From NCBI GenBank assembly GCA_009914755.4, contig CP086569.2, positions 28,448,001 through 28,512,000 of the forward strand: DNA of 64,000 bases. Reading direction: 5' to 3'. Below, in pieces: positions 3,551 through 49,455 of this stretch. The DNA is from the human T2T-CHM13v2.0 reference genome, Homo sapiens. The position numbers and the translations under genes are program-made. The notes below the pieces were generated by a model that had not been told where the DNA came from, made no database searches, and was given only the letters and a program-made list of their open reading frames with translations. Each line of letters starts with the position of its first letter. The first letter of the stretch is position 1.

Positions 3551-3563
3551 AAGGGAATGTAGT

Positions 3564-17100: not shown

Positions 17101-17651
17101 TTGACTGGAATGGAATGTACATGAATGGAATGTAATCGAATGGAAAGTAATCCAATGGAATAGAATCTAATGCAATAAAATCTACTCAGATAGAGTAGAA
17201 TGTAATGGAATGGAGTGCAGTGCAGTGGAATGGAATGGAATGGAATGCAATGGAATGGAATGGAATGGAATGGAATGGAATGGAATGGAATGGAATGGGA
17301 TGGAATGGTATGGAATGGATAGTAATGGACTGGAGTGAAATGGACTGGAAAGGAATGGACTCAAATTGAAAGGGCTCGAAAGGAATGGAGTCAAATGGAA
17401 TGGTCTGGAATGGAATGAACACGAATGTAATGCAATCCAATAGAATGGAATCGAATGGCATGGAATATAAAGAAATGGAATCGAAGAGAATGGAAACAAA
17501 CGGAATGGAATTGAATGGAATGGAATTGAATGGAATGGGAACGAATGGAGTGAAATTGTATGCAGTAGAAGAGAATAGAATGGAATGCAAGCGAAAGGAA
17601 AGGAATGGATTGGAATGGAATGGAATTCATTGGAATGGAAGGGAATGTAGT
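14139..17651 (+). repeat. HOR unit U4 (3513 bp). Haplotype beta, long variant, subtype B deletion. Longest pure (GGAAT) tract, 9 copies.
   Basis: Landmark at 14139. Junction at 15846-15865. Pure tract at about 17252-17296. Confidence 0.85.
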
Positions 17652-20600: not shown

Positions 20601-21210
20601 TGAAAGGAATGGGATCGAATACAATGGAATATACTGGAATGTAATGTAATGAACTCGAATGTAATTGACTGGAATGGAATGTACATGAATGGAATGTAAT
20701 CGAATGGAAAGTAATCCAATGGAATAGAATCTAATGCAATAAAATCTACTCAGATAGAGTAGAATGTAATGGAATGGAGTGCAGTGCAGTGGAATGGAAT
20801 GGAATGGAATGCAATGGAATGGAATGGAATGGAATGGAATGGAATGGAATGGAATGGGATGGAATGGTATGGAATGGATAGTAATGGACTGGAGTGAAAT
20901 GGACTGGAAAGGAATGGACTCAAATTGAAAGGGCTCGAAAGGAATGGAGTCAAATGGAATGGTCTGGAATGGAATGAACACGAATGTAATGCAATCCAAT
21001 AGAATGGAATCGAATGGCATGGAATATAAAGAAATGGAATCGAAGAGAATGGAAACAAACGGAATGGAATTGAATGGAATGGAATTGAATGGAATGGGAA
21101 CGAATGGAGTGAAATTGTATGCAGTAGAAGAGAATAGAATGGAATGCAAGTGAAAGGAAAGGAATGGATTGGAATGGAATGGAATTCATTGGAATGGAAG
21201 GGAATGTAGT
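17652..21210 (+). repeat. HOR unit U5 (3559 bp). Haplotype alpha, long variant, plus the D variant block ('ctaataaaacggaaaggaaaggaagggaatgg' and 'tcgacaaaaatgg').
   Basis: Landmark at 17652. D strings at about 18180-18215 and 18318-18335. Confidence 0.85.
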
Positions 21211-24200: not shown

Positions 24201-24769
24201 GAATGTAATTGACTGGAATGGAATGTACATGAATGGAATGTAATCGAATGGAAAGTAATCCAATGGAATAGAATCTAATGCAATAAAATCGACTCAGATA
24301 GAGTAGAATGTAATGGAATGGAGTGCAGTGCAATGGAATGGAATGGAATGGAATGCAATGGAATGGAATGGAATGGAATGGAATGGAATGGAATGGGATG
24401 GAATGGTATGGAATGGATAGTAATGGACTGGAGTGAAATGGACTGGAAAGGAATGGACTCAAATTGAAAGGGCTCGAAAGGAATGGAGTCAAATGGAATG
24501 GTCTGGAATGGAATGAACACGAATGTAATGCAATCCAATAGAATGGAATCGAATGGCATGGAATATAAAGAAATGGAATCGAAGAGAATGGAAACAAACG
24601 GAATGGAATTGAATGGAATGGAATTGAATGGAATGGGAACGAATGGAGTGAAATTGTATGCAGTAGAAGAGAATAGAATGGAACGCAAGCGAAAGGAAAG
24701 GAATGGATTGGAATGGAATGGAATTCATTGGAATGGAATGGAATTCATTGGAATGGAAGGGAATGTAGT
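21211..24769 (+). repeat. HOR unit U6 (3559 bp). Haplotype alpha, long variant, D variant block, 20-bp tandem duplication at the unit end.
   Basis: Landmark at 21211. D strings at about 21745-21780 and 21885-21900. Duplication at 24717-24756. Confidence 0.85.
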
Positions 24770-27700
24770 GTAATGGACAGGCCTGGAATAAAGTGGAATG
24801 CTACGGTCTCGAATGGAATAAAAATGTATGGAATGGAATGCAATGAAACGGAATCGAATGTCATAGAATGTAATGGAATGCAAAAAAATGGAATCCAAAA
24901 TCATTGACTGGAAAGGCTGGGTTTCGAAAGGAATTGACTCCAATGGAATGGAATCGAATGGAATGGAAGTGAATAGAATCGAACTAAATCGAATGGAATG
25001 GAATTGGTAGGAACGGAATGGAAAGGAATGAAATGATTTGGGATGGAATGGAATCGAATGGCATCGAATGGAATGGAATGGAATGCAATGCAATGGAATG
25101 TATTAGAATGTAATGAACTTTAATGGAATGTACTCGAATGGATTCGACTGGAATGGAATGTTCTGGAAGTGAATGCACTCCAATGCAATGGATTCAAAAG
25201 GAATGGAATCGTACGGAATGGAATCTAATGGAATGGAATTAAATGGAAATGAATCAAATTGAATAGCACGGAATTGAATTGAATGGAATCGAATGCAATG
25301 GAATCTAATAAAACGGAAAGGAAAGGAATGGAATGGAATGGAATGGAATGGGCTGGAATGGAAAGGAATCGAAACGAATGGAATGGAATCGAACTGAAGA
25401 GACTGGAATGGAATGCACTGGAATGGAAGGGAGTGTAATGGAAGTTTCTCGAAAAAAATGGAATCGAATGGAATGGAATTGAATGGAACGGAATAGAGTC
25501 GAATGGAATTGAATGGAATGGAATGGACTAGAGTGAAATGGAATCGAACCACAAGGAATGGACAGGAATAGAATGGTCTCGAATTGAATGGAATCGTATG
25601 GAATGGCATCAAACGGAATGGAATGGACAGCCACGGAATGGAATGCACTCGAATGCAATGGAGTCGAAACTAATGGACTGGAATAGAATGGACTCGACTG
25701 GTACGGACTCCAATGGAATGGAATCGAATGGAAGGGAATCGAACGGAATGGACTCGAAGGGAAAAGACTGCAATGGAAAGGTCTCGAATGGAATGGAAAT
25801 TAATGGAATGGAATGGAATCGAATGAAATGGAGTCAAAAGGAATGGAATCGAATGGCAAGAAATCGAATGTAATGGAATCGCAAGGAATGGATGTGAACG
25901 GAACGGAATGGAATGGAATCCAAAGGAATGGAATAGAATGGAATGGAATCGAATGGAAAGGACTCGAATGGAAATCACTCGAATAGAATGCAATTTAATA
26001 AAATAGGATGAAATGTAATGGAATGGAATGGAAAGGAATCGAAACGAAAGGAATGGAGACAGATGGAATGGAATGGAACAGAGAGCAATGGTATAGAATG
26101 GAATGGAATCATCTGAAATGGAATTGAATGGAATGGAATAATATGAAATGGAATGGAATGGAATGGAATGCCCTTGAATTAAATGGACTGGAATGGAATG
26201 GACTCGAACAGAGTGGAATGGAAAGTGTTGAGATAGAATGGAATGGACTCGTTTGGAATGGTCTAGTATGCAATGCAATCGACTGGCAGGGAATCAAAAG
26301 GAATGTAATCGAATGGATTGGACTGGAATGCAATGGACTCGAATAGATTGGAAACGGAATGCAAAGGAATGGAATGGAATAGTATGGAATGGAATGGAAA
26401 GGAATGGAGTGGAATAGACTAGAGTGGAATGGAATGGACTCGAAAGCAATGGACTGGAAATGGAACTTTCTTGAATGGACTGGAATCAGAGAATCAAATG
26501 GAATTGAATCGAATGGAATCGAATGGATTGGAAAGGAATAGAATGGAATGGAATGGAATTGACTCAAATGGAATGGACTAGAATGGAATGGATTCGAATG
26601 GAAGGCAAAGGAATGGAATCTATTGGAATGGACTGCAATGGAATGGAATGGAAGGGATTGGAATGGACTCGAATGGAATGGACTGCAATAGAAAGGATTC
26701 GAATGGAATGAAAAAGAATTGAATGGAATAGAACAGAATGGAATCAAATCGAATGAAATGGAATGGAATAGAAAGGAATGGAATGAAATGGAATGGAAAG
26801 GATTCGAATGGAATGCAATCGAATGGAATGGAATCGAACGGAATGGAATAAAATGGAAGCAAACTGGCAAGAAATGGAATCGAAATGAATGGAGTGTTAT
26901 GGAACGGACTCAAAAGGAATTGAATGTAATAGAATGGAGTGGAGTGGACTCGAATATAATGGACTGGAATGGAATGAAATCACATGGAATGGGAACGAAT
27001 GGAATGGAATGGAAAGGAATGGAATCGAATGGAAAGGAATCGAATGGAAGGGAATGAAATTGAATCAACAGGAATGGAAGGGAATAGAATAGACGGTAAT
27101 GGAATGGACTCGAATAGAATGGACACGAATGCTCAAATTGAATGGACTCGAATGGAATGGAAACGAAAGGAATGTCATCGAATGGAATTGAATCGATTGG
27201 AATGAAATCGCATAGAATGGAGTGGAATCAAATGGAATTGAATCGCAAGGAAAGGAAGCGAATGGACTGAAATGAAATGGAATGGAATTGAATGGAAAGT
27301 AATGCAATGGAATAGAATGGAACGAAATTTCACGGAATGGAATCAAACTGAATGGAATCAAATCAATGGAATCTAATCAAATGGAATGGAAAGGAATTGA
27401 ATGGAGTAGATGGGATTGGATGGGATTGGAATGAAATGTACTAGAAAGGACTCGAATTTTATGAAACGGAATGGAAAGAATTGGAACGGAATGGACTCGA
27501 ATGGAATGGAATGTCATGGAATGGCATCAAATGGAATGGCATCAAATGGAATGGAATCGAATGCAATGGAATGCTATGGAATGGAACGGAATGCATTGGA
27601 ATGGAATGTCCTCTAATGGAAAGGATTCGAGTGGAATGGAATCGAATATAATGGAGTCGAATGAAATGGAATTGAAAGGAATGGGATCGAATACAATGGA

Positions 27701-28297
27701 ATATACTGGAATGTAATGTAATGAACTCGAATGTAATTGACTGGAATGGAATGTACATGAATGGAATGTAATCGAATGGAAAGTAATCCAGTGGAATAGA
27801 ATCTAATGCAATAAAATCTACTCAGATAGAGTAGAATGTAATGGAATGGAGTGCAGTGCAGTGGAATGGAATGGAATGGAATGCAATGGAATGGAATGGA
27901 ATGGAATGGAATGGAATGGAATGGAATGGAATGGGATGGAATGGTATGGAATGGATAGTAATGGACTGGAGTGAAATGGACTGGAAAGGAATGGACTCAA
28001 ATTGAAAGGGCTCGAAAGGAATGGAGTCAAATGGAATGGTCTGGAATGGAATGAACACGAATGTAATGCAATCCAATAGAATGGAATCGAATGGCATGGA
28101 ATATAAAGAAATGGAATCGAAGAGAATGGAAACAAACGGAATGGAATTGAATGGAATGGAATTGAATGGAATGGGAACGAATGGAGTGAAATTGTATGCA
28201 GTAGAAGAGAATAGAATGGAATGCAAGCGAAAGGAAAGGAATGGATTGGAATGGAATGGAATTCATTGGAATGGAAGGGAATGTAGTGTAATGGACA
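24770..28297 (+). repeat. HOR unit U7 (3528 bp). Haplotype alpha, long variant, subtype B deletion.
   Basis: Landmark at 24770. Junction at 26482-26501. Confidence 0.85.
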
Positions 28298-31200
28298 GGC
28301 CTGGAATAAAATGGAATGCTACGGTCTCGAATGGAATAAAAATGTATGGAATGGAATGCAATGAAACGGAATCGAATGTCATAGAATGTAATGGAATGCA
28401 AAAAAATGGACTCCAAAATCATTGACTGGAAAGGCTGGGTTTCGAAAGGAATTGACTCCAATGGAATGGAATCGAATGGAATGGAAGTGAATAGAATCGA
28501 ACTAAATCGAATGGAATGGAATTGGTAGGAACGGAATGGAAAGGAATGAAATGATTTGGCATGGAATGGAATCGAATGGCATCGAATGGAATGGAATGGA
28601 ATGCAATGCAATGGAATGTATTAGAATGTAATGAACTTTAATGGAATGTACTCGAATGGATTCGACTGGAATGGAATGTTCTGGAAGTGAATGCACTCCA
28701 ATGGAATAGACTCAAAAGGAATGGAATCGTACGGAATGGAATCTAATGGAATGGAATTAAATGGAAATGAATCAAATTGAATAGCACGGAATTGAATTGA
28801 ATGGAATCGAATGCAATGGAATCTAATAAAACGGAAAGGAAAGGAAGGGAATGGAATGGAATGGGCTGGAATGGAAAGGAATCGAAACGAATGGAATGGA
28901 ATCGAACTGAAGAGACTGGAATGGAATGCACTGGAATGGAAGGGAGTGTAATGGAAGTTTCTCGACAAAAATGGAATCGAATGGAATGGAATTGAATGGA
29001 ACGGAATAGAGTCGAATGGAATTGAATGGAATGGAATGGACTAGAGTGAAATGGAATCGAACCACAAGGAATGGACAGGAATAGAATGGTCTCGAATTGA
29101 ATGGAATCGTATGGAATGGCATCAAACGGAATGGAATGGACAGCCACGGAATGGAATGCACTCGAATGCAATGGAGTCGAAACTAATGGACTGGAATAGA
29201 ATGGACTCGACTGGTACGGACTCCAATGGAATGGAATCGAATGGAAGGGAATCGAACGGAATGGACTCGAAGGGAAAAGACTGCAATGGAAAGGTCTCGA
29301 ATGGAATGGAAATTAATGGAATGGAATGGAATCGAATGAAATGGAGTCAAAAGGAATGGAATCGAATGGCAAGAAATCGAATGTAATGGAATCGCAAGGA
29401 ATTGATGTGAACGGAACGGAATGGAATGGAATCCAAAGGAATGGAATAGAATGGAATGGAATCGAATGGAAAGGACTCGAATGGAAATCACTCGAATAGA
29501 ATGCAATTTAATAAAATAGGATGAAATGTAATGGAATGGAATGGAAAGGAATCGAAACGAAAGGAATGGAGACAGATGGAATGGAATAGAACAGAGAGCA
29601 ATGGTATAGAATGGAATGGAATCATCTGAAATGGAATTGAATGGAATGGAATAATATGAAATGGAATGGAATGGAATGGAATGCCCTTGAATTAAATGGA
29701 CTGGAATGGAATGGACTCGAACAGAGTGGAATGGAAAGTGTTGAGATAGAATGGAATGGACTCGTTTGGAATGGTCTAGTATGCAATGCAATCGACTGGC
29801 AGGGAATCAAAAGGAATGTAATCGAATGGATTGGACTGGAATGCAATGGACTCGAATAGATTGGAAACGGAATGCAAAGGAATGGAATGGAATAGTATGG
29901 AATGGAATGGAAAGGAATGGAGTGGAATAGACTAGAGTGGAATGGAATGGACTCGAAAGCAATGGACTGGAAATGGAACTTTCTTGAATGGACTGGAATC
30001 AGAGAATCAAATGGAATTGAATCGAATGGAATCGAATGGATTGGAAAGGAATAGAATGGAATGGAATGGAATTGACTCAAATGGAATGGACTAGAATGGA
30101 ATGGATTCGAATGGAAGGCAAAGGAATGGAATCTATTGGAATGGACTGTAATGGAATGGAATGGAAGGGATTGGAATGAACTCGAATGGAATGGACTGCA
30201 ATAGAAAGGATTTGAATGGAATGAAAAAGAATTGAATGGAATAGAACAGAATGGAATCAAATCGAATGAAATGGAATGGAATAGAAAGGAATGGAATGAA
30301 ATGGAATGGAAAGGGTTCGAATGGAATGCAATCGAATGGAATGGAATCGAACGGAATGGAATAAAATGGAAGCAAACTGGCAAGAAATGGAATCGAAATG
30401 AATGGAGTGTTATGGAACGGACTCAAAAGGAATTGAACGTAATAGAATGGAGTGGAGTGGACTCGAATATAATGGACTGGAATGGAATGAAATCACATGG
30501 AATGGGAACGAATGGAATGGAATGGAAAGGAATCGAATGGAAGGGAATGAAATTGAATCAACAGGAATGGAAGGAATAGAATAGACGGTAATGGAATGGA
30601 CTCGAATAGAATGGACACGAATGCTCAAATTGAATGGACTCGAATGGAATGGAAACGAAAGGAATGTCATCGAATGGAATTGAATCGATTGGAATGAAAT
30701 GGCATAGAATGGAGTGGAATCAAATGGAATTGAATCGAAAGGAAAGGAAGCGAATGGACTGAAATGAAATGGAATGGAATTGAATGGAAAATAATGCAAT
30801 GGAATAGAATGGAACGAAATTTCACGGAATGGAATCAAACTGAATGGAATCAAATCAATGGAATATAATCAAATGGAATGGAAAGGAATTGAATGGAGTA
30901 GATGGGATTGGATGGGATTGGAGTGAAATGTACTGGAAAGGACTCGAATTTTATGAAACGGAATGGAAAGAATTGGAACGGAATGGACTCGAATGGAATG
31001 AAATGTCATGGAATGGCATCAAATGGAATGGCATCAAATGGAAAGGAATCGAATGCAATGGAATGCTATGGAATGGTTCGGAATGCATTGGAATGGAATG
31101 TCCTCTAATGGAAAGGATTCGAGTGGAATGGAATCGAATATAATGGAGTCGAATGAAATGGAATTGAAAGGAATGGGATCGAATACAATGGAATATACTG

Positions 31201-31769
31201 GAATGTAATGTAATGAACTCGAATGTAATTGACTGGAATGGAATGTACATGAATGGAATGTAATCGAATGGAAAGTAATCCAATGGAATAGATTCTAATG
31301 CAATAAAATCTACTCAGATAGAGTAGAATGTAATGGAATGGAGTGCAGTGCAGTGGAATGGAATGGAATGGAATGCAATGGAATGGAATGGAATGGAATG
31401 GAATGGAATGGAATGGGATGGAATGGTATGGAATGGATAGTAATGGACTGGAGTGAAATGGACTGGAAAGGAATGGACTCAAATTGAAAGGGCTCGAAAG
31501 GAATGGAGTCAAATGGAATGGTCTGGAATGGAATGAACACGAATGTAATGCAATCCAATAGAATGGAATCGAATGGCATGGAATATAAAGAAATGGAATC
31601 GAAAAGAATGGAAACAAACGGAATGGAATTGAATGGAATGGAATTGAATGGAATGGGAACGAATGGAATGAAATTGTATGCAGTAGAAGAGAATAGAATG
31701 GAATGCAAGCGAAAGGAAAGGAATGGATTGGAATGGAATGGAATTCATTGGAATGGAAGGGAATGTAGT
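28298..31769 (+). repeat. HOR unit U8 (3472 bp). Haplotype alpha, long variant, D variant block, subtype B deletion, and an extra 20-bp deletion between 'ggaaagg' direct repeats.
   Basis: Landmark at 28298. Subtype B junction at 29995-30014. Second junction at about 30525-30535. Confidence 0.85.
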
Positions 31770-34700
31770 GTAATGGACAGGCCTGGAATAAAGTGGAATG
31801 CTACGGTCTCGAATGGAATAAAAATGTATGGAATGGAATGCAATGAAACGGAATCGAATGTCATAGAATGTAATGGAATGCAAAAAAATGGAATCCAAAA
31901 TCATTGACTGGAAAGGCTGGGTGTCGAAAGGAATTGACTCCAATGGAATGGAATCGAATGGAATGGAAGTGAATATAATCCAACTAAATCGAATGGAATG
32001 GAATTGATAGGAACGGAATGGAAAGGAATGAAATGATTTGGCATGGAATGGAATCGAATGGCATCGAATGGAATGGAATGGAATGCAATGCAATGGAATG
32101 TATTAGAATGTAATGAACTTTAATGGAATGTACTCGAATGGATTCGACTGGAATGGAATGTTCTGGAAGTGAATGGACTCCAATGGAATGGATTGAAAAG
32201 GAATGGAATCGTACGGAATGGAATCTAATGGAATGGAATTAAATGGAAATGAATCAAATTGAATAGCACGGAATTGAATTGAATGGAATCGAATGCAATG
32301 GAATCTAATGAAACGGAAAGGAAAGGAATGGAATGGAATGGAATGGGCTGGAATGGAAAGGAATCGAAACGAATGGAATGGAATCGAACTGAGGAGACTG
32401 GAATGGAATGCACTGGAATGGAAGGGAGTGTAATGGAAGGTTCTCGAAAAAAATGGAAACGAATGGAATGGAATTGAATGGAACGGAATAGAGTCGAATG
32501 GAATTGAATGGAATGGAATGGACTAGAGTGAAATGGAATCGAACCACAAGGAATGGACAGGAATAGAATGGTCTCGAATTGAATGGAATAGTATGGAATG
32601 GCATCAAACGGAATGGAATGGACAGACACGGAATGGAATACGCTCGAATGCAATGGAGTCGAACCTAATGGACTGGAATAGAATGGACTCGACTGGTACG
32701 GACTCCAATGGAATGGAATCGAATGGAAGGGAATCGAACGGAATGGACTCGAAGGGAAAAGACTGCAATGGAAAGGTCTCGAATGGAATGGAAATTAATG
32801 GAATGGAATGGAATCGAATGAAATGGAGTCAAAAGGAATGGAATCGAATGGCAAGAAATCGAATGTAATGGAATCGCAAGGAATTGATGTGAACGGAACG
32901 GAATGGAATGGAATCCAAAGGAATGGAATAGAATGGAATGGAATCGAATGGAAAGGACTCGAATGGAAATCACTCGAATAGAATGCAATTTAATAAAATA
33001 GGATGAAATGTAATGGAATGGAATGGAAAGGAATCGAAACGAAAGGAATGGAGATAGATGGAATGGAATGGAACAGAGAGCAATGGTATAGAATGGAATG
33101 GAATCATCTGGAATGGAATTGAATGGAAGGGAATAATATGAAATGGAATGGAATGGAATGGAATGGAATGCCCTTGAATTAAATGGACTGGAATGGAATG
33201 TACTTAAACAGAGTGGAATGGAAAGTGTTGAGATAGAATGGAATGGACGCCTTTGGAATGGTCTAGTATGCAATGCAATCGACTGGCAGGGAATCAAAAG
33301 GAATGTAATCGAATGGATTGGACTGGAATGCAATGGACTCGAATAGATTGGAAACGGAATGCAAAGGAATGGAATGGAATAGTATGGAATGGAATGGAAA
33401 GGAATGGAGTGGAATAGACTAGAGTGGAATGGAGTGGACTCGAAAGCAATGGACTGGAATGGAACTTTCTTGAATGGACTGGAATCAAACGGAATGGAAT
33501 GCAATGCAATCAAATGGCATGGAATAAAATAGAATGAAAGAGAATCAAATGGAATTGAATCGAATGGAATCGAATGGATTGGAAAGGAATAGAATGGAAT
33601 GGAATGGAATTGACTCAAATGGAATGGACTAGAATGGAATGGATTCGAATGGAAGGCAAAGGAATGGAATCTATTGGAATGGACTGCAATGGAATGGAAT
33701 GGAAGGGATTGGAATGGACTCGAATGGAATGGACTGCCATAGAAAGGATTCGAATGGAATGAAAAAGAATTGAATGGAATAGAACAGAATGGAATCAAAT
33801 CGAATGAAATGGAATGGAATAGAAAGGAATGGAATGAAATGGAATGGAAAGGATTCGAATGGAATGCAATCGAATGGAATGGAATCAAACGGAATGGAAT
33901 AAAATGGAAGCAAACTGGCAAGAAATGGAATCGAAATGAATGGAGTGTTATGGAACGGACTCAAAAGGAATTGAATGTAATAGAATGGAGTGGAGTGGAC
34001 TCGAATATAATGGACTGGAATGGAATGAAATCACATGGAATGGGAACGAATGGAATGGAATGGAAAGGAATGGAATCGAATGGAAAGGAATCGAATGGAA
34101 GGGAATGAAATTGAATCAACAGGAATGGAAGGGAATAGAATAGACGGTAATGGAATGGACTCGAATAGAATGGACACGAATGCTCAAATTGAATGGACTC
34201 GAATGGAATGGAAACGAAAGGAATGTCATCGAATGGAATTGAATCGATTGGAATGAAATCGCATAGAATGGAGTGGAATCAAATGGAATTGAATCGAAAG
34301 GAAAGGAAGCGAATGGACTGAAATGAAATGGAATGGAATTGAATGGAAAGTAATGCAATGGAATAGAATGGAACGAAATTTCACGGAATGGAATCAAACT
34401 GAATGGAATCAAATCAATGGAATATAATCAAATGGAATGGAAAGGAATTGAATGGAGTAGATGGGATTGGATGGGATTGGAATGAAATGTACTGGAAAGG
34501 ACTCGAATTTCATGAAAAGGAATGGAATGAATTGGAACGGAATGGACTCGAATGGAATGGAATGTCATGGAATGGCATCAAATGGAATGGAATCGAATGC
34601 AATGGAATGCTATGGAATGGAATGGAATACATTGGAATGGAACGTCCTCTAATGGAATGGATTCGAGTGGAATTGAATCGAATATAATGCAGTCGAATGA

Positions 34701-35348
34701 AATGGAATTGAAAGGAATGGGATCGAATACAATGGAATATACTGGAATGTAATGTAATGAACTCGAATGTAATTGACTGGAATGGAATGTACATGAATGG
34801 AATGTAATCGAATGGAAAGTAATCCAATGGAATAGAATCTAGTGCAATAAAATCGACTCAGATAGAGTAGAATGTAATGGAATGGAGTGCAGTGCAATGG
34901 AATGGAATGGAATGGAATGCAATGGAATGGAATGGAATGGAATGAAATGGAATGGAATGGAATGGAATGGAATGGGATGGAATGGTATGGAATGGATAGT
35001 AATGGACTGGAGTGAAATGGACTAGAAAGCAATGGACTCAAATTGAAAGGGCTCGAAAGGAATGGAGTCAAATGGAATGGTCTGGAATGGAATGAACACG
35101 AATGTAATGCAATCCAATACAATGGAATCGAATGGCATGGAATATAAAGAAATGGAATCGAAGAGAATGGAAACAAACGGAATGGAATTGAATGGAATGG
35201 AATTGAATGGAATGGGAACGAATGGAGTGAAATTGTATGCAGTAGAAGAGAATAGATTGGAATGCAAGCGAAAGGAAAGGAATGGTTTGGAATGGAATGG
35301 AATTCATTGGAATGGAATGGAATTCATTGGAATGGAAGGGAATGTAGT
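31770..35348 (+). repeat. HOR unit U9 (3579 bp). Haplotype beta, long variant, 20-bp tandem duplication. Twin of U10.
   Basis: Landmark at 31770. Private variants 'gacagacacgg', 'aatacgctcg' and 'cgaacctaatgg' are shared only with U10. Confidence 0.85.
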
Positions 35349-38300
35349 GTAATGGACAGGCCTGGAATAAAGTGGAATGCTACGGTCTCGAATGGAATAA
35401 AAATGTATGGAATGGAATGCAATGAAACGGAATCGAATGTCATAGAATGTAATGGAATGCAAAAAAATGGAATCCAAAATCATTGACTGGAAAGGCTGGG
35501 TGTCGAAAGGAATTGACTCCAATGGAATGGAATCGAATGGAATGGAAGTGAATATAATCCAACTAAATCGAATGGAATGGAATTGATAGGAACGGAATGG
35601 AAAGGAATGAAATGATTTGGCATGGAATGGAATCGAATGGCATCGAATGGAATGGAATGGAATGCAATGCAATGGAATGTATTAGAATGTAATGAACTTT
35701 AATGGAATGTACTCGAATGGATTCGACTGGAATGGAATGTTCTGGAAGTGAATGGACTCCAATGGAATGGATTGAAAAGGAATGGAATCGTACGGAATGG
35801 AATCTAATGGAATGGAATTAAATGGAAATGAATCAAATTGAATAGCACGGAATTGAATTGAATGGAATCGAATGCAATGGAATCTAATGAAACGGAAAGG
35901 AAAGGAATGGAATGGAATGGAATGGGCTGGAATGGAAAGGAATCGAAACGAATGGAATGGAATCGAACTGAGGAGACTGGAATGGAATGCACTGGAATGG
36001 AAGGGAGTGTAATGGAAGGTTCTCGAAAAAAATGGAAACGAATGGAATGGAATTGAATGGAACGGAATAGAGTCGAATGGAATTGAATGGAATGGAATGG
36101 ACTAGAGTGAAATGGAATCGAACCACAAGGAATGGACAGGAATAGAATGGTCTCGAATTGAATGGAATAGTATGGAATGGCATCAAACGGAATGGAATGG
36201 ACAGACACGGAATGGAATACGCTCGAATGCAATGGAGTCGAACCTAATGGACTGGAATAGAATGGACTCGACTGGTACGGACTCCAATGGAATGGAATCG
36301 AATGGAAGGGAATCGAACGGAATGGACTCGAAGGGAAAAGACTGCAATGGAAAGGTCTCGAATGGAATGGAAATTAATGGAATGGAATGGAATCGAATGA
36401 AATGGAGTCAAAAGGAATGGAATCGAATGGCAAGAAATCGAATGTAATGGAATCACAAGGAATTGATGTGAACGGAACGGAATGGAATGGAATCCAAAGA
36501 AATGGAATAGAATGGAATGGAATCGAATGGAAAGGACTCGAATGGAAATCACTCGAATAGAATGCAATTTAATAAAATAGGATGAAATGTAATGTAATGG
36601 AATGGAAAGGAATCGAAACGAAAGGAATGGAGATAGATGGAATGGAATGGAACAGAGAGCAATGGTATAGAATGGAATGGAATCATCTGGAATGGAATTG
36701 AATGGAAGGGAATAATATGAAATGGAATGGAATGGAATGGAATGGAATGCCCTTGAATTAAATGGACTGGAATGGAATGTACTTAAACAGAGTGGAATGG
36801 AAAGTGTTGAGATAGAATGGAATGGACGCCTTTGGAATGGTCTAGTATGCAATGCAATCGACTGGCAGGGAATCAAAAGGAATGTAATCGAATGGATTGG
36901 ACTGGAATGCAATGGACTCGAATAGATTGGAAACGGAATGCAAAGGAATGGAATGGAATAGTATGGAATGGAATGGAAAGGAATGGAGTGGAATAGACTA
37001 GAGTGGAATGGAGTGGACTCGAAAGCAATGGACTGGAATGGAACTTTCTTGAATGGACTGGAATCAAACGGAATGGAATGCAATGCAATCAAATGGCATG
37101 GAATAAAATAGAATGAAAGAGAATCAAATGGAATTGAATCGAATGGAATCGAATGGATTGGAAAGGAATAGAATGGAATGGAATGGAATTGACTCAAATG
37201 GAATGGACTAGAATGGAATGGATTCGAATGGAAGGCAAAGGAATGGAATCTATTGGAATGGACTGCAATGGAATGGAATGGAAGGGATTGGAATGGACTC
37301 GAATGGAATGGACTGCCATAGAAAGGATTCGAATGGAATGAAAAAGAATTGAATGGAATAGAACAGAATGGAATCAAATCGAATGAAATGGAATGGAATA
37401 GAAAGGAATGGAATGAAATGGAATGGAAAGGATTCGAATGGAATGCAATCGAATGGAATGGAATCAAACGGAATGGAATAAAATGGAAGCAAACTGGCAA
37501 GAAATGGAATCGAAATGAATGGAGTGTTATGGAACGGACTCAAAAGGAATTGAATGTAATAGAATGGAGTGGAGTGGACTCGAATATAATGGACTGGAAT
37601 GGAATGAAATCACATGGAATGGGAACGAATGGAATGGAATGGAAAGGAATGGAATCGAATGGAAAGGAATCGAATGGAAGGGAATGAAATTGAATCAACA
37701 GGAATGGAAGGGAATAGAATAGACGGTAATGGAATGGACTCGAATAGAATGGACACGAATGCTCAAATTGAATGGACTCGAATGGAATGGAAACGAAAGG
37801 AATGTCATCGAATGGAATTGAATCGATTGGAATGAAATCGCATAGAATGGAGTGGAATCAAATGGAATTGAATCGAAAGGAAAGGAAGCGAATGGACTGA
37901 AATGAAATGGAATGGAATTGAATGGAAAGTAATGCAATGGAATAGAATGGAACGAAATTTCACGGAATGGAATCAAACTGAATGGAATCAAATCAATGGA
38001 ATATAATCAAATGGAATGGAAAGGAATTGAATGGAGTAGATGGGATTGGATGGGATTGGAATGAAATGTACTGGAAAGGACTCGAATTTCATGAAAAGGA
38101 ATGGAATGAATTGGAACGGAATGGACTCGAATGGAATGGAATGTCATGGAATGGCATCAAATGGAATGGAATCGAATGCAATGGAATGCTATGGAATGGA
38201 ATGGAATACATTGGAATGGAACGTCCTCTAATGGAATGGATTCGAGTGGAATTGAATCGAATATAATGCAGTCGAATGAAATGGAATTGAAAGGAATGGG

Positions 38301-38927
38301 ATCGAATACAATGGAATATACTGGAATGTAATGTAATGAACTCGAATGTAATTGACTGGAATGGAATGTACATGAATGGAATGTAATCGAATGGAAAGTA
38401 ATCCAATGGAATAGAATCTAGTGCAATAAAATCGACTCAGATAGAGTAGAATGTAATGGAATGGAGTGCAGTGCAATGGAATGGAATGGAATGGAATGCA
38501 ATGGAATGGAATGGAATGGAATGAAATGGAATGGAATGGAATGGAATGGAATGGGATGGAATGGTATGGAATGGATAGTAATGGACTGGAGTGAAATGGA
38601 CTAGAAAGCAATGGACTCAAATTGAAAGGGCTCGAAAGGAATGGAGTCAAATGGAATGGTCTGGAATGGAATGAACACGAATGTAATGCAATCCAATACA
38701 ATGGAATCGAATGGCATGGAATATAAAGAAATGGAATCGAAGAGAATGGAAACAAACGGAATGGAATTGAATGGAATGGAATTGAATGGAATGGGAACGA
38801 ATGGAGTGAAATTGTATGCAGTAGAAGAGAATAGATTGGAATGCAAGCGAAAGGAAAGGAATGGTTTGGAATGGAATGGAATTCATTGGAATGGAATGGA
38901 ATTCATTGGAATGGAAGGGAATGTAGT
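35349..38927 (+). repeat. HOR unit U10 (3579 bp). Near-identical twin of U9.
   Basis: Landmark at 35349. Same length and same private variants as U9. The ORF-track proteins differ by only a few residues. Confidence 0.85.
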
Positions 38928-41900
38928 GTAATGGACAGGCCTGGAATAAAGTGGAATGCTACGGTCTCGAATGGAATAAAAATGTATGGAATGGAATGCA
39001 ATGAAACGGAATCGAATGTCATAGAATGTAATGGAATGCAAAAAAATGGAATCCAAAATCATTGACTGGAAAGGCTGGGTTTCGAAAGGAATTGACTCCA
39101 ATGGAATGGAATCGAATGGAATGGAAGTGAATAGAATCGAACTAAATCGAATGGAATGGAATTGGTAGGAACGGAATGGAAATGAATGAAATGATTTGGC
39201 ATGGAATGGAATCGAATGGCATCGAATGGAATGGAATGGAATGCAATGCAATGGAATGTATTAGAATGTAATGAACTTTAATGGAATGTACTCGAATGGA
39301 TTCGACTGGAATGGAATGTTCTGGAAGTGAATGCACTCCAATGGAATAGATTCAAAAGGAATAGAATCGTACGGAATGGAATCTAATGGAATGGAATTAA
39401 ATGGAAATGAATCAAATTGAATAGCACGGAATTGAATTGAATGGAATCGAATGCAATGGAATCCAATAAAACGGAAAGGAAAGGAAGGGAATGGAATGGA
39501 ATGGGCTGGAATGGAAAGGAATCGAAACGAATGGAATGGAATCGAACTGAAGAGACTGGAATGGAATGCACTGGAATGGAAGGGAGTGTAATGGAAGTTT
39601 CTCGACAAAAATGGAATCGAATGGAATGGAATTGAATGGAACGGAATAGAGTCGAATGGAATTGAATGGAATGGAATGGACTAGAGTGAAATGGAATCGA
39701 ACCACAAGGAATGGACAGGAATAGAATGGTCTCGAATTGAATGGAATCGTATGGAATGGCATCAAACGGAATGGAATGGACAGCCACGGAATGGAATGCA
39801 CTCGAATGCAATGGAGTCGAAACTAATGGACTGGAATAGAATGGACTCGACTGGTACGGACTCCAATGGAATGGAATCGAATGGAAGGGAATCGAACGGA
39901 ATGGACTCGAAGGGAAAAGACTGCAATGGAAAGGTCTCGAATGGAATGGAAATTAATGGAATGGAATGGAATCGAATGAAATGGAGTCAAAAGGAATGGA
40001 ATCGAATGGCAAGAAATCGAATGTAATGGAATCGCAAGGAATGGATGTGAACGGAACGGAATGGAATGGAATCCAAAGGAATGGAATAGAATGGAATGGA
40101 ATCGAATGGAAAGGACTCGAATGGAAATCACTCGAATAGAATGCAATTTAATAAAATAGGATGAAATGTAATGGAATGGAATGGAAAGGAATCGAAACGA
40201 AAGGAATGGAGACAGATGGAATGGAATGGAACAGAGAGCAATGGTATAGAATGGAATGGAATCATCTGAAATGGAATTGAATGGAATGGAATAATATGAA
40301 ATGGAATGGAATGGAATGGAATGCCCTTGAATTAAATGGACTGGAATGGAATGGACTCGAACAGAGTGGAATGGAAAGTGTTGAGATAGAATGGAATGGA
40401 CTCGTTTGGAATGGTCTAGTATGCAATGCAATCGACTGGCAGGGAATCAAAAGGAATGTAATCGAATGGATTGGACTGGAATGCAATGGACTCGAATAGA
40501 TTGGAAACGGAATGCAAAGGAATGGAATGGAATAGTATGGAATGGAATGGAAAGGAATGGAGTGGAATAGACTAGAGTGGAATGGAATGGACTCGAAAGC
40601 AATGGACTGGAAATGGAACTTTCTTGAATGGACTGGAATCAGAGAATCAAATGGAATTGAATCGAATGGAATCGAATGGATTGGAAAGGAATAGAATGGA
40701 ATGGAATGGAATTGATTCAAATGGAATGGACTAGAATGGAATGGATTCGAATGGAAGGCAAAGGAATGGAATCTATTGGAATGGACTGCAATGGAATGGA
40801 ATGGAAGGGATTGGAATGGACTCGAATGGAATGGACTGCCATAGAAAGGATTCGAATGGAATGAAAAAGAATTGAATGGAATAGAACAGAATGGAATCAA
40901 ATCGAATGAAATGGAATGGAATAGAAAGGAATGGAATGAAATGGAATGGAAAGGATTCGAATGGAATGCAATCGAATGGAATGGAATCGAACGGAATGGA
41001 ATAAAATGGAAGAAAACTGGCAAGAAATGGAATCGAAATGAATGGAGTGTTATGGAACGGACTCCAAAGGAATTGAATGTAATAGAATGGAGTGGAGTGG
41101 ACTCGAATATAATGGACTGGAATGGAATGAAATCACATGGAATGGGAACGAATGGAATGGAATGGAAAGGAATGGAATCGAATGGAAAGGAATCGAATGG
41201 AAGGGAATGAAATTGAATCAACAGGAATGGAAGGGAATAGAATAGACGGTAATGGAATGGACTCGAATAGAATGGACACGAATGCTCAAATTGAATGGAC
41301 TCGAATGGAATGGAAACGAAAGGAATGTCATCGAATGGAATTGAATCGATTGGAATGAAATCGCATAGAATGGAGTGGAATCAAATGGAATTGAATCGAA
41401 AGGAAAGGAAGCGAATGGACTGAAATGAAATGGAATGGAATTGAATGGAAAGTAATGCAATGGAATAGAATGGAACGAAATTTCACGGAATGGAATCAAA
41501 CTGAATGGAATCAAATCAATGGAATATAATCAAATGGAATGGAAAGGAATTGAATGGAGTAGATGGGATTGGATGGGATTGGAATGAAATGTACTGGAAA
41601 GGACTCGAATTTCATGAAACGGAATGGAAAGAATTGGAACGGAATGGACTCGAATGGAATGGAATGTCATGGAATGGCATCAAATGGAATGGCATCAAAT
41701 GGAATGGAATCGAATGCAATGGAATGCTATGGAATGGAACGGAATGCATTGGAATGGAATGTCCTCTAACGGAAAGGATTCGAGTGGAATGGAATCGAAT
41801 ATAATGGAGTCGAATGAAATGGAATTGAAAGGAATGGGATCGAATACAATAGAATATACTGGAATGTAATGTAATGAACTCGAATGTAATTGACTGGAAT

Positions 41901-42435
41901 GGAATGTACATGAATGGAATGTAATCGAATGGAAAGTAATCCAATGGAATAGAATCTAATGCAATAAAATCTACTCAGATAGAGTAGAATGTAATGGAAT
42001 GGAGTGCAGTGCAGTGGAATGGAATGGAATGGAATGCAATGGAATGGAATGGAATGGAATGGAATGGAATGGGATGGAATGGGATGGAATGGTATGGAAT
42101 GGATAGTAATGGACTGGAGTGAAATGGACTGGAAAGGAATAGACTCAAATTGAAAGGGCTCGAAAGGAATGGAGTCAAATGGAATGGTCTGGAATGGAAT
42201 GAACACGAATGTAATGCAATCCAATAGAATGGAATCGAATGGCATGGAATATAAAGAAATGGAATCGAAGAGAATGGAAACAAACGGAATGGAATTGAAT
42301 GGAATGGAATTGAATGGAATGGGAACGAATGGAGTGAAATTGTATGCAGTAGAAGAGAATAGAATGGAATGCAAGCGAAAGGAAAGGAATGGATTGGAAT
42401 GGAATGGAATTCATTGGAATGGAAGGGAATGTAGT
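38928..42435 (+). repeat. HOR unit U11 (3508 bp). Haplotype alpha, long variant, D variant block, subtype B deletion.
   Basis: Landmark at 38928. D strings at about 39465-39500 and 39600-39615. Junction at 40635-40654. Confidence 0.85.
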
Positions 42436-45400
42436 GTATTGGACAGGCCTGGAATAAAGTGGAATGCTACGGTCTCGAATGGAATAAAAATGTATGGAAT
42501 GGAATGCAATGAAACAGAATCGAATGTCATAGAATGTAATGGAATGCAAAAAAATGGAATCCAAAATCATTGACTGGAAAGGCTGGGTGTCGAAAGGAAT
42601 TGACTCCAATGGAATGGAATCGAATGGAATGGAAGTGAATAGAATCGAACTAAATCGAATGGAATGGAATTGATAGGAACGGAATGGAAAGGAATGCAAT
42701 GATTTGGCATGGAATGGAATCGAAGGGCATCGAATGGAATGGAATGGAATGTATTAGAATGTAATGAACTTTAGTGGAATGTACTCGAATGGATTCGACT
42801 GGAATGGAATGTTCTGGAAGTGAATGGACTCCAATGGAATGGATTCAAAAGGAATGGAATCATACGGAATGGAATCTAATGGAATGGAATTAAATGGAAA
42901 TGAATCAAATTGAATAGCACGGAATGAATTGAATGGAATCGAATGCAATGGAATCTAATGAAACGGAAAGGAAAGGAATGGAATGGAATGGAATGGGCTG
43001 GAATGGAAAGGAATCGAAACGAATGGAATGGAATCGAACTGAATAGACTGGAATGGAATGCACTGGAATGGAAGGGAGTGTAATGGAAGGTTTTCGAAAA
43101 AAATGGAATCGAATGGAATGGAATTGAATGGAACGGAATAGAGTCGAATGGAATTGAATGGAATGGAATGGACTAGAGTGAAATGGAATCGAATCACAAG
43201 GAATGGACAGGAATAGAATGGTCACGAATTGAATGGAATCGTATGGAATGGCATCAAACGGAATGGAATGGACAGCCACGGAATGGAATGCCCTCGAATG
43301 CAATGGAGTCGAAACTAATGGACTGGAATAGAATGGACTCGACTGGTACGGACTCCAATGGAATGGAATCGAATGGAAGGGAATCGAACGGAATGGACTC
43401 GAAGGGAAAAGACTGCCATGGAAATGTCTCGAATGGAATGGAAATTAATGGAATGGAATGGAATCGAATGAAATGGAGTCAAAAGGAATGGAATCGAATG
43501 GCAAGAAATCGAACGTAATGGAATCGCAAGGAATTGATGTGAACGGAACGGAATGGAATGGAATCCAAAGGAATGGAATAGAATGTAATGGAATCGAATG
43601 GAAAGGACTCGAATGGAAATCATTCGAATAGAATGCAATTTAATAAAATAGGATGAAATGTAATGGAATGGAATGGAAAGGAATCGAAACGAAAGGAATG
43701 GAGACAGATGGAATGGAATGGAACAGAGAGCAATGGTATAGAATGGAATGGAATCATCTGGAATGGAATTGAATGGAATGGAATAATATGAAATGGAATG
43801 GAATGGAATGGAATGCCCTTGAATTAAATGGACTGGAATGGAATGGACTCGAACAGAGTGGAATGGAAAGTGTTGAGATAGAATGGAATGGACTCGTTTG
43901 GAATGGTCTAGTATGCAATGCAATCGACTGGCAGGGAATCAAAAGGAATGTAATCGAATGGATTGGACTGGAATGCAATGGACTCGAATAGATTGGAAAC
44001 GGAATGCAAAGGAATGGAATGGAATAGTATGGAATGGAATGGAAAGGAATGGAGTGGAATAGACTAGAGTGGAATGGAATGGACTCTAAAGCAATGGACT
44101 GGAAATGGAACTTTCTTGAATGGACTGGAATCAGAGAATCAAATGGAATTGAATCGAATGGAATCGAATGGATTGGAAAGGAATAGAATGGAATGGAATG
44201 GAATTGACTCAAATGGAATGGACTAGAATGGAATGGATTCGAATGGAAGGCAAAGGAATGGAATCTATTGGAATGGACTGCAATGGAATGGAATGGAAGG
44301 GATTGGAATGGACTCGAATGGAATGGACTGCCATAGAAAGGATTCGAATGGAATGCAAAAGAATTGAATGGAATAGAACAGAATGGAATCAAAGCGAATG
44401 AAATGGAATGGAATAGAAAGGAATGGAATGAAATGGAATGGAAAGGATTCGAATGGAATGCAATCGAATGGAATGGAATCGAACGGAATGGAATAAAATG
44501 GAAGCAAACTAGCAAGAAATGGAATCGAAATGAATGGAGTGTTATGGAACGGACTCAAAAGGAATTGAATGTAATAGAATGGAGTGGAGTGGACTCGAAT
44601 ATAATGGACTGGAATGGAATGAAATCACATGGAATGGGAACGAATGGAATGGAATGGAAAGGAATGGAATCTAATGGAAAGGAATCGAATGGAAGGGAAT
44701 GAAATTGAATCAACAGGAATGGAAGGGAATAGAATAGACGGTAATGGAATGGACTCGAATAGAATGGACACGAATGCTCAAATTGAATGGACTCGAATGG
44801 AATGGAAACGAAAGGAATGTCATCGAATGGAATTGAATCGATTGGAATGAAATGGCATAGAATGGAGTGGAATCAAATGGAATTGAATCGAAAGGAAAGG
44901 AAGCGAATGGACTGAAATGAAATGGAATGGAATTGAATGGAAAGTAATGCAATGGAATAGAATGGAACGAAATTTCACGGAATGGAATCCAACTGAGTGG
45001 AATAAAATCAATGGAATATAATCAAATGGAATGGAAAGGAATTGAATGGAGTAGATGGGATTGGATGGGATTGGAATGAAATGTACTGGAAAGGACTCGA
45101 ATTTCATGAAAAGGAATGGAATGAATTGGAACGGAATGGACTCGAATGGAATGGAATGTCATGGAATGGCATCAAATGGAATGGAATCGAATGCAATGGA
45201 ATGCTATGGAATGGAATGGAATGCATTGGAATGGAACGTCCTCTAATGGAAAGGATTCGAGTGGAATTGAATCGAATATAATGCAGTCGAATGAAATGGA
45301 ATTGAAAGGAATGCGATCGAATACAATGGAATATACTGGAATGTAATGTAATGAAGTCGAATGTAATTGACTGGAATGGAATGTACATGAATGGAATGTA

Positions 45401-45902
45401 ATCGAATGGAAAGTAATCCAATGGAATAGAATCTAATGCAATAAAATCGACTCAGATAGAGTAGAATGTAATGGAATGGAGTGCAGTGCAATGGAATGGA
45501 ATGGAATGGAATGCAATGGAATGGAATGGAATGGAATGGAATGGAATGGGATGGAATGGTATGGAATGGATAGTAATGGACTGGAGTGAAATGGACTGGA
45601 AAGGAATGGACTCAAATTGAAAGGGCTCGAAAGGAATGGAGTCAAATGGAATGGTCTGGAATGGAATGAACACGAATGTAATGCAATCCAATAGAATGGA
45701 ATCGAATGGCATGGAATATAAAGAAATGGAATTGAAGAGAATGGAAACAAACGGAATGGAATTGAATGGAATGGAATTGAATGGAATGGGAACGAATGGA
45801 GTGAAATTGTATGCAGTAGAAGAGAATAGAATGGAATGCAAGCGAAAGGAAAGGAATGGATTGGAATGGAATGGAATTCATTGGAATGGAAGGGAATGTA
45901 GT
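42436..45902 (+). repeat. HOR unit U12 (3467 bp, the shortest). Haplotype beta, short variant, subtype B deletion. Landmark mutated to 'gtattggacaggcctgg'.
   Basis: Junction at 44127-44146. GGCC retained. Confidence 0.85.
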
Positions 45903-48900: not shown

Positions 48901-49455
48901 GAACTCGAATGTAATTGACTGGAATGGAATGTACATGAATGGAATGTAATCGAATGGAAAGTAATCCAATGGAATAGAATCTAATGCAATAAAATCGACT
49001 CAGATAGAGTAGAATGTAATGGAATGGAGTGCAGTGCAATGGAATGGAATGGAATGGAATGCAATGGAATGGAATGGAATGGAATAGAATGGAATGGAAT
49101 GGGATGGAATGGTATGGAATGGATAGTAATGGACTGGAGTGAAATGGACTGGAAAGGAATGGACTCAAATTGAAAGGGCTCGAAAGGAATGGAGTCAAAT
49201 GGAATGGTCTGGAATGGAATGAACACGAATGTAATGCAATCCAATAGAATGGAATCGAATGGCATGGAATATAAAGAAATGGAATCGAAGAGAATGGAAA
49301 CAAACGGAATGGAATTGAATGGAATGGAAATGAATGGAATGGGAACGAATGGAGTGAAATTGTATGCAGTAGAAGAGAATAGAATGGAATGCAAGCGAAA
49401 GGAAAGGAATGGATTGGAATGGAATGGAATTCATTGGAATGCAAGGGAATGTAGT
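45903..49455 (+). repeat. HOR unit U13 (3553 bp). Beta-like ('gatgggtgtcg'), long variant. Landmark mutated to 'gtaattgacaggcctgg'.
   Basis: Landmark at 45903. No subtype B deletion. Confidence 0.85.

What the first reader, a model, noticed from the sequence alone, without database searches (positions are those of the whole stretch)
31770..38927. Two adjacent 3579-bp units are near-identical twins, consistent with a very recent unequal-exchange duplication
U9 and U10 have identical length. They share private variants that no other unit has: 'ggaatagtatggaatggcatc', 'gacagacacggaatggaatacgctcg', 'cgaacctaatgg', 'ggaaacgaatgg' and the 20-bp duplication. Their 418-aa artefactual ORFs differ at only 3 residues. 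I can find only about 6-8 nucleotide differences in total, roughly 0.2%. Ordinary neighbouring units differ by roughly 1-2%. The same pattern occurs more weakly in U16, U17 and U18, which share 'cacttcaatggaagggaatgtaatgg', and in U5 and U6.
Basis: seen in the sequence. Interest (0 to 1): 0.5.

Follow-up and report, generated by a model that had tools for sequence, protein, structure and literature searches.

The report
Recently duplicated Y-satellite (DYZ1) repeat unit
Two neighbouring 3,579-base copies of the human Y-chromosome satellite DYZ1 differ at only three bases, so one unit was copied next to itself recently; this is a clear but ordinary example of how such arrays are known to grow.

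Summary
The window holds 18 full units, plus 425 bp, of a 3.47-3.58 kb repeat built from GGAAT. It matches every DYZ1/HSat3A6 feature I could test. The units at 31770-35348 and 35349-38927 are both 3,579 bp. The next closest of 153 unit pairs has 16 substitutions and 1 indel. Other neighbouring pairs differ by 0.54-1.85%.

The twins share 17 variants found in no other unit: 15 substitutions, a 5-bp insertion and a 15-bp insertion. None of these occurs in 33 external DYZ1-bearing contigs.

Period-3579 identity runs from 31727 to 39080. This places the exchange point in a 196-bp stretch of perfect identity (35306-35501).

All three differences are derived in the second copy and lie within 141 bp (P about 0.004). 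This suggests one later multi-site event rather than three separate mutations.

The best reading is a one-unit tandem duplication by out-of-register exchange, roughly 10 to 3,000 generations old. Whole-unit gene conversion and assembly error cannot be excluded.

The weaker pair near the window's end is real.

This is a known process, so interest is low.

The parts
1..64000 (+). Uninterrupted head-to-tail array: 18 full units (3,467-3,579 bp) plus 425 bp of a repeat built from GGAAT. It has the features of human DYZ1/HSat3A6.
   Evidence: There is one GGCC (HaeIII) site per unit, GC is 38.8%, and there is 1 CpG per 34.3 bp. The papers read give 38% GC, 1 CpG per 35 bp and a unit of about 3.5-3.6 kb.
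31770..35348 (+). It keeps the array-wide consensus base at all three sites where the twins differ.
35349..38927 (+). It carries the three derived substitutions.
31727..39080 (+). Full span over which the sequence repeats with period exactly 3,579 bp (2.05 copies). Only 3 mismatches occur in 3,775 compared positions.
35306..35501 (+). Inferred exchange or junction interval. These 196 bp are where the end of U9 matches the end of the twin unit and the start of the twin unit matches the start of U12. A crossover here leaves no hybrid unit. The equivalent stretches are 31727-31922 and 38885-39080.
   Evidence: It is the 5th longest of 130 uninterrupted identity blocks in the one-unit-offset alignment (median block 28 bp).
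36455..36595 (+). Cluster of the only three twin differences: 36455 G>A at a CpG, 36500 G>A, 36595 G>T. All three are derived in copy B and lie within 141 bp.
   Evidence: P of such clustering = 0.0044; no donor carrying them in the window or in the external copies.
33142..33146 (+). 5-bp (AATGG) insertion private to the twins. The copy in U11 is at 36721-36725.
34931..34945 (+). 15-bp insertion (AATGGAATGGAATGA) private to the twins. The copy in U11 is at 38510-38524.
35286..35305 (+). 20-bp internal duplication (TTGGAATGGAATGGAATTCA). The copy in U11 is at 38865-38884. It is not private: U1 and U7 also carry it.
32665..33921 (-). 418-aa stop-free reading frame. Its twin is at 36244-37500 and is 415/418 identical. 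It is a by-product of ATTCC repeats translating as (IPFHS)n, not a gene.
   Evidence: The only Pfam hits are low-complexity ones far below the curated cut-offs.
56518..63575 (+). An older adjacent pair (my U17 and U18). They differ by 19 substitutions and 2 indels (0.54%) and share 8 pair-private variants.

Best explanation
The window is a stretch of the human Y-chromosome long-arm satellite DYZ1 (HSat3A6). One already divergent unit, called X here, sat between the present U9 and U12. It was copied once, head to tail, giving U10 and U11.

The most likely route is homologous repair or exchange between sister chromatids misaligned by one unit. This could be unequal sister-chromatid exchange or a related out-of-register repair event. 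The switch point lay in the 196-bp stretch of perfect identity that spans the unit boundary (35306-35501), so no hybrid unit was formed.

Afterwards, or during the same event, one short multi-site change within 141 bp altered three bases in the second copy. This was most likely a short gene-conversion patch from a DYZ1 unit outside the window, or a patch of error-prone repair.

What is shown: near-identity, shared derived variants, clean boundaries, and clustering and polarity of the three differences. What is inferred: that copy number rose, the exchange mechanism, the age, and the origin of the three-base cluster.
For: - The twins differ by 3 substitutions and 0 indels over 3,579 bp. The closest other pair has at least 16 substitutions and 1 indel, and the median pair differs by 1.42%.
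- The twins share 17 pair-private variants. The next pair has 8 and all others have at most 1.
- None of these variants occurs in 33 external DYZ1-bearing contigs.
- Period-3579 identity ends sharply at 31726/31727 and at 35501/35502. No twin-private variant appears in U9 or U12.
- The permitted crossover interval is an uninterrupted 196-bp identity block. It is the 5th longest of 130, where the median block is 28 bp. Homology-dependent exchange is expected to favour such a block.
- All three differences are derived in U11 and lie within 141 bp (P = 0.0044).
- Published context: Yq12 structure is described as consistent with unequal exchange, and sister-chromatid exchanges were seen in about 15% of Strand-seq libraries (10.1101/2022.12.01.518724). 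About one de novo whole-unit gain or loss per Y transmission was seen, in DYZ2. The Yq12 SNV rate is 3.86e-7 per bp per generation, and 29% of those SNVs look like interlocus conversion (PMC12240836). Grouped SNVs consistent with conversion were also reported (PMC13252187).
- With that rate, three differences imply about 1,086 generations (95% interval 224-3,173). One event implies about 362 generations (9-2,017).
Against: - A single haplotype cannot show that copy number changed. A conversion that overwrote a whole neighbouring unit would give the same sequence.
- If crossovers were uniform along the unit, only 5.5% (196 of 3,579 bp) would leave no hybrid unit. The clean boundaries therefore need either a preference for long identity blocks or some luck.
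- The de novo whole-unit events in the pedigree study were all in DYZ2, not DYZ1.
- No donor for the three-base cluster was found in the window or in the external copies. However, those sample only a tiny fraction of DYZ1 units.
- I had no read-level data to rule out an assembly error.
- The Y-chromosome origin rests on matching published features and on contaminant contigs. I did not align the window to a reference Y.
Confidence: 0.75

Rival explanations
1. Whole-unit gene conversion. The array already had two units in these slots. One was overwritten by its neighbour in a single long, out-of-register conversion tract, with no change in copy number.
For: Interlocus gene conversion is frequent in Yq12: 29% of de novo SNVs match non-orthologous sites (PMC12240836), and 17% of grouped events were classed as conversion (PMC13252187). 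The end product would be indistinguishable from a duplication in one haplotype.
Against: The tract would have to span at least about 3.3 kb, from twin-private marker 31981 to 35257-35305. It would also have to carry all length differences so that both units end at exactly 3,579 bp. The median conversion tract measured in Y palindromes is 542 bp (PMC13252187). No partially converted unit (a hybrid between X and another type) is seen on either side.
Confidence: 0.13
2. Assembly artefact. A single X-type unit was falsely duplicated, or two units were over-homogenised during consensus polishing.
For: Satellite arrays are the hardest regions to assemble. A recent population study reports tandem-repeat loops left unwalked and manual graph curation in heterochromatin (PMC13252187). 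I could not inspect any reads.
Against: The twin block is only 7.2 kb. It is flanked by units that differ from it by about 1.7-1.8% plus 6-8 indels, so ordinary 15-20 kb accurate long reads would span it unambiguously (inference). The two copies are not identical: three substitutions distinguish them. A simple false duplication would not create those.
Confidence: 0.06
3. No special event. The two units are ordinary neighbours that happen to have diverged little.
For: None beyond the gentle general trend for nearer units to be more alike. Mean distance, counting substitutions plus indel events, is 1.2% at lag 1 and 1.5% at lags 5-6.
Against: The twins differ at 3 sites against at least 16 for any other pair. 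They share 17 pair-private derived variants. They are the only two units with this exact length among 18.
Confidence: 0.01

Closest known systems
DYZ1 / HSat3A6 satellite arrays of human Yq12, evolving by unequal exchange (Rhie et al. 2023, 10.1101/2022.12.01.518724; Hallast et al. 2023, 10.1101/2022.12.01.518658)
   Same: The window has a unit of about 3.5-3.6 kb derived from a pentamer, one HaeIII site per unit, 38-39% GC and about 1 CpG per 35 bp. Units are mostly more than 98% alike. These papers already attribute array structure to unequal exchange and local expansion and contraction.
   Different: The papers describe duplications at the scale of blocks (up to 5 Mb) and identity gradients across arrays. 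Here a single-unit event is resolved to a 196-bp junction interval, with a count of post-event changes. That is a difference of scale, not of kind.
De novo whole-unit gains and losses of Yq12 satellite in a four-generation pedigree (Porubsky et al. 2025, PMC12240836)
   Same: Those are insertions or deletions of entire satellite units (2,416-4,839 bp), about one per Y transmission. They occur alongside a raised SNV rate with conversion-like clusters. The twin is what such an event looks like some generations later.
   Different: All five observed events affected DYZ2 units, whereas this one is in DYZ1. Here the event is inferred from one haplotype rather than seen between father and son.
Smith (1976) model of tandem-repeat evolution by unequal crossover. 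It is cited in PMC12240836; my summary of the model is from my own knowledge.
   Same: Out-of-register exchange duplicates a unit, which creates locally identical neighbours and homogenises arrays over time.
   Different: There is nothing different in principle. The window adds only an example, with a short secondary patch of three changes.

Membership tests
DYZ1 / HSat3A6 (human Yq12 satellite) | Built from diverged copies of the pentamer GGAAT/CATTC | tested here: met
   TRF consensus is (ATGGA)n-type across 59-63998. Rotations of GGAAT make up 33% of all 5-mers.
DYZ1 / HSat3A6 (human Yq12 satellite) | Nested higher-order unit of about 3.5-3.6 kb in head-to-tail arrays | tested here: met
   There are 18 units of 3,467-3,579 bp. 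The papers give about 3.5 kb and about 3.6 kb.
DYZ1 / HSat3A6 (human Yq12 satellite) | One HaeIII (GGCC) site per unit, giving fragments of about 3.56 kb | tested here: met
   There are exactly 19 GGCC sites in 64 kb, one per unit, giving fragments of 3,467-3,579 bp. Hallast et al. used this digest and found 3,569 bp to be the commonest fragment length. No unit here is exactly 3,569 bp.
DYZ1 / HSat3A6 (human Yq12 satellite) | Composition: about 38% GC and about 1 CpG per 35 bp | tested here: met
   GC is 38.8% and there is 1 CpG per 34.3 bp (compared).
DYZ1 / HSat3A6 (human Yq12 satellite) | Sequence match to a reference DYZ1 consensus, and location on Yq12 alternating with DYZ2 blocks | not testable with these tools
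   No human reference or DYZ1 consensus is available in the tools, and the window contains no DYZ2 or flanking sequence. Indirect support: U10 is 96-99% identical to contigs in human-gut metagenomes and to human-type contaminant contigs in bacterial assemblies.
Tandem duplication by unequal (out-of-register) exchange | Two adjacent head-to-tail copies of equal length that are far more alike than the background | tested here: met
   Both are 3,579 bp and differ by 3 substitutions and 0 indels. Every other pair has at least 16 substitutions.
Tandem duplication by unequal (out-of-register) exchange | The copies share derived variants absent from other units, showing common descent rather than slow change | tested here: met
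   There are 17 pair-private events. None occurs in the 33 external loci.
Tandem duplication by unequal (out-of-register) exchange | The junction lies in sequence shared by the misaligned partners | tested here: met
   The junction interval is a 196-bp block of perfect identity, the 5th longest of 130.
Tandem duplication by unequal (out-of-register) exchange | Copy number actually increased: a one-unit-shorter ancestral or reciprocal haplotype exists | not testable with these tools
   This needs other assembled Y haplotypes or a pedigree. An attempt to detect a multi-unit register shift inside the window gave no signal.

The most novel reading that the evidence does not exclude
The three substitutions confined to 141 bp of the second copy might be a scar of the duplication event itself. 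They could mark a stretch of error-prone repair synthesis, as expected from break-induced replication or synthesis-dependent strand annealing, laid down as the extra unit was made. On this reading they would not be a later conversion or independent mutations. If true, satellite twins like this one would record the repair pathway that expands human heterochromatin.
Probability: 0.1. Interest if true: 0.45.

Novelty: already known. Interest (0 to 1): 0.15.

Why it matters
The finding mostly serves as confirmation. It gives a base-resolution example of a one-unit gain in DYZ1, a process already inferred for Yq12 and directly observed for DYZ2 in pedigrees.

It has three practical uses:
1. The X-type unit carries 17 private variants, absent from the other 16 units here and from the 33 external DYZ1-bearing contigs examined. 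This makes it a specific marker for checking whether the twin is present or absent across Y lineages.
2. The pair offers a small clock, three changes or one event in 2 x 3,579 bp. This can be compared with the very high pedigree mutation rate for Yq12.
3. The clustering of the three differences is a concrete case of multi-site change in this satellite.

None of this changes current understanding.

Tried and rejected
1. Twin-type unit elsewhere. I searched for a twin-specific 52-mer in metagenome and prokaryote-genome collections and found nothing. A degenerate version of the same 52-mer found 27 + 6 DNA stretches (loci) bearing DNA 96-99% identical to U10, so the negative is meaningful but low-powered. 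Most hits are short-read contigs of about 3.6 kb, probably one collapsed unit. The viral collection gave nothing.

2. Exact-protein look-up. I looked up both 418-aa ORFs to find other assemblies carrying the X-type unit. Neither is on record.

3. Donor for the three-base cluster. No other copy in the window or in the external loci carries two of the alleles. Only the 36500 allele recurs, in U18. The conversion reading is therefore untested rather than supported.

4. Multi-unit register test. I asked whether removing one twin restores a three-unit periodicity, which would have favoured duplication over conversion. No lag stands out, and removing any unit changes little, so the test is inconclusive.

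5. Strand or context signature of the three changes. All three are G on the G-rich strand. With 78% of G/C sites being G on this strand, that carries no weight, and the sequence contexts are mixed. I dropped this line.

6. The 55-kb long-read contig BNJT01001888.1 (L005, L006, L014) might have shown how common twins are in another male. Its alignments carry 35-85 gap openings per unit. It is therefore too error-prone to measure 0.1% differences.

7. The ORFs are not genes. They are (IPFHS)n low-complexity translations with only sub-threshold Pfam hits.
Full report
**What the window is**

Tandem Repeats Finder reports a single pentamer-based array, (ATGGA)n-type, across 59-63998. A k-mer lag histogram shows a higher-order period of about 3.5 kb, with 3,579 and 3,559 the commonest lags. 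GC content and GC skew are flat across all 64 kb, so there is no interruption or inversion.

I anchored on the 40-mer at 31770 and allowed up to 3 mismatches. This gives 18 full units of 3,467-3,579 bp plus a 425-bp partial unit. I number units from 1.

The window has one GGCC (HaeIII) site per unit, 38.8% GC, one CpG per 34.3 bp, and 33% of 5-mers are rotations of GGAAT. These match the published description of human DYZ1/HSat3A6:
- a unit of about 3.5-3.6 kb derived from CATTC;
- 38% GC and one CpG per 35 bp;
- HaeIII digestion used to cut out units.

The sources are Hallast et al. (10.1101/2022.12.01.518658) and Rhie et al. (10.1101/2022.12.01.518724).

A degenerate 52-mer from the unit found 27 stretches in metagenome contigs, including human-gut samples, and 6 in contigs deposited as bacterial genomes. 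These are 96-99% identical to U10. This is the pattern expected of human DNA contamination. I could not align the window to a reference Y, so the chromosomal assignment rests on these feature matches.

**Checking the observation**

U10 and U11 are both 3,579 bp, and no other unit has that length. A direct comparison at an offset of 3,579 gives three mismatches and no indels:
- 32876 G vs 36455 A
- 32921 G vs 36500 A
- 33016 G vs 36595 T

Pairwise global alignment of all 153 unit pairs (an independent MAFFT alignment agrees) shows the twins as an extreme outlier:

| Comparison | Substitutions / indels | Substitution divergence |
|---|---|---|
| U10-U11 (twins) | 3 / 0 | 0.084% |
| U5-U8 (next closest) | 16 / 1 | 0.46% |
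| U17-U18 | 19 / 2 | 0.54% |
| U6-U7 | 26 / 3 | 0.73% |
| Median of all pairs | - | 1.42% |
| The 16 other adjacent pairs | - | 0.54-1.85% |

Divergence rises only gently with distance. Counting substitutions plus indel events, it goes from about 1.2% at lag 1 to about 1.5% at lags 5-6.

The twins share 35 alignment columns, representing 17 events, that no other unit has. These are 15 substitutions, a 5-bp insertion at 33142-33146 and a 15-bp insertion at 34931-34945.

'ggaatagtatggaatggcatc' recurs in U14. 'ggaaacgaatgg' recurs in U14, U17 and U18. The 20-bp duplication at 35286-35305 is shared with U1 and U7.

The two 418-aa minus-strand ORFs are 415/418 identical.

My U17/U18 share 8 pair-private variants, while every other pair has at most 1. 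The partial last unit is closest to U18. So an older duplication there is supported. That claim is not supported.

**Anatomy of the event**

Identity at period 3,579 runs from 31727 to 35501, matched to 35306-39080. That is 3,775 positions with 3 mismatches. It ends abruptly on both sides.

The 196 bp beyond one period arise because the last 43 bp of U9 equal the last 43 bp of the twin unit, and the first 153 bp of the twin unit equal the first 153 bp of U12. No twin-private variant leaks into U9 or U12.

Suppose the ancestor was U9-X-U12 and two copies paired one unit out of register. Then the switch must have fallen within this 196-bp interval (35306-35501 in present coordinates). Anywhere else, it would have produced a visible hybrid unit.

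In the offset alignment, this block is the 5th longest of 130 uninterrupted identity blocks, whose median length is 28 bp. Homology-dependent exchange is expected to favour long perfect matches. That expectation is an inference from general knowledge, and the rank is suggestive rather than decisive.

**The three differences**

At all three sites U10 carries the base found in every other unit, or in 16 of 17 at site 32921, while U11 carries the odd base. All three changes therefore happened in U11.

They lie within 141 bp of a 3,579-bp unit. The chance of three random sites being that close is 0.0044. One multi-site event is more likely than three independent mutations.

There are three candidate explanations:
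- a short gene-conversion patch from a DYZ1 unit outside the window;
- a patch of error-prone repair;
- a local consensus error.

No copy in the window or in the external loci carries two of the three alleles. The conversion idea therefore has no direct support here, though these sources sample very few DYZ1 units.

Pedigree studies report that 29% of de novo Yq12 SNVs match non-orthologous sites (PMC12240836). They also report that grouped SNVs consistent with conversion occur (PMC13252187). A conversion patch is therefore an established kind of event in this region.

**Age**

I used the pedigree-based Yq12 rate of 3.86e-7 per bp per generation (PMC12240836). Results are:

| Assumption | Point estimate | 95% interval |
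|---|---|---|
| Three independent differences | about 1,086 generations | 224-3,173 |
| One multi-site event | about 362 generations | 9-2,017 |

With a euchromatic Y rate of about 3e-8, a value taken from my own knowledge, the figures are about 13 times larger. The event is recent relative to the other units, and on the Yq12 rate it probably falls within the time span of living Y lineages. Whether it is polymorphic among them remains a prediction, not a result.

**Mechanism and rivals**

The best reading is a one-unit tandem duplication by out-of-register homologous exchange or repair between sister chromatids (confidence about 0.75 for duplication). The Y long arm does not undergo crossing-over with a homologue (own knowledge). 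The literature also reports frequent sister-chromatid exchange in Yq12 and about one whole-unit satellite gain or loss per transmission, though those events were in DYZ2.

The rivals are:
- **Whole-unit gene conversion (about 0.13).** This would need a tract of at least about 3.3 kb that also carried every length difference. The median tract in Y palindromes is 542 bp. One haplotype cannot exclude it.
- **Assembly artefact (about 0.06).** This is unlikely because the 7.2-kb block has clearly different flanks and its two copies are distinguishable. I had no reads to check.
- **Chance.** This is excluded.

I tried to separate duplication from conversion by asking whether deleting one twin restores a multi-unit periodicity. 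There was no signal.

**Context of the duplicated unit**

X was already an odd unit before it duplicated. It is 1.26-1.85% from every other unit. It sits inside a run of more similar units, U2, U5, U6, U8, U9 and U12, which are mostly 0.46-0.9% apart.

Its rarer variants are shared with different partners in different parts of the unit:
- with U14 at 32459-32640;
- with U1, U3 and U15 at 33201-33251;
- with U7 and U13 at 34518-34690;
- with U1 and U7 at 35286-35305.

This patchwork points to earlier exchanges among units.

**Novelty and verdict**

The process is already known: unequal exchange in DYZ1/DYZ2 arrays, whole-unit de novo events, and conversion-like SNV clusters are all described in the papers cited above. 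The finding is a good textbook example and a possible lineage marker, not a discovery. Interest is 0.15.

The most novel reading not excluded is that the three-base cluster is a scar of error-prone synthesis during the duplication itself (probability about 0.1).

Noticed in passing
window 56518-64000: U17 and U18 form an older adjacent pair. They differ by 19 substitutions and 2 indels and share 8 pair-private variants. The 425-bp partial unit that follows is closest to U18, with 1 difference. This may be a small local expansion of three or more units running off the window's end.
   Followed up: partly
window 3564-42435 (U2, U5, U6, U8, U9, U12): A family of mutually similar but mostly non-adjacent units (0.46-0.9% apart) is interleaved with more divergent units. 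By contrast, U13-U16 are each 1.5-2% from everything. No clean multi-unit period explains the pattern.
   Followed up: partly
window 31770-35348: The duplicated unit is a mosaic. Its rare variants are shared with U14 in the 5' part, with U1/U3/U15 in the middle, and with U7/U13 (and U1/U7) in the 3' part. This suggests earlier conversion or exchange among units.
   Followed up: partly
window 34900-34960 and the homologous place in every unit: This is a hotspot for length change. Nearly every unit has a different number of AATGG/AATGC pentamers here, with indels of 5-31 bp in the aligned block. This accounts for part of the 3,467-3,579 bp range in unit length.
   Followed up: no
L028-L033 (genome contigs) and L001-L027 (metagenome contigs): Sequence 96-99% identical to the window's repeat unit (DYZ1 by the features tested) sits in contigs deposited as bacterial genomes. 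Examples are Actinomadura cremea JCM 3308, several Streptomyces JCM strains, a Senimuribacter isolate and a Polyangiaceae MAG. It also sits in gut and other metagenomes. Many contigs are about 3.6 kb, which probably means one collapsed unit. This looks like human (male) DNA contamination.
   Followed up: partly
window, minus strand, e.g. 32665-33921, 34649-35176 and 31509-32093: There are long stop-free reading frames of up to 418 aa on the minus strand, because ATTCC repeats encode (IPFHS)n without stop codons. Gene callers applied to such DNA would predict spurious proteins.
   Followed up: yes
window 36500 and 61198: The G>A change GGAAT>GAAAT at the second twin-difference site is also present at the homologous site of U18. 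The cause is either recurrent mutation or exchange between distant units.
   Followed up: no
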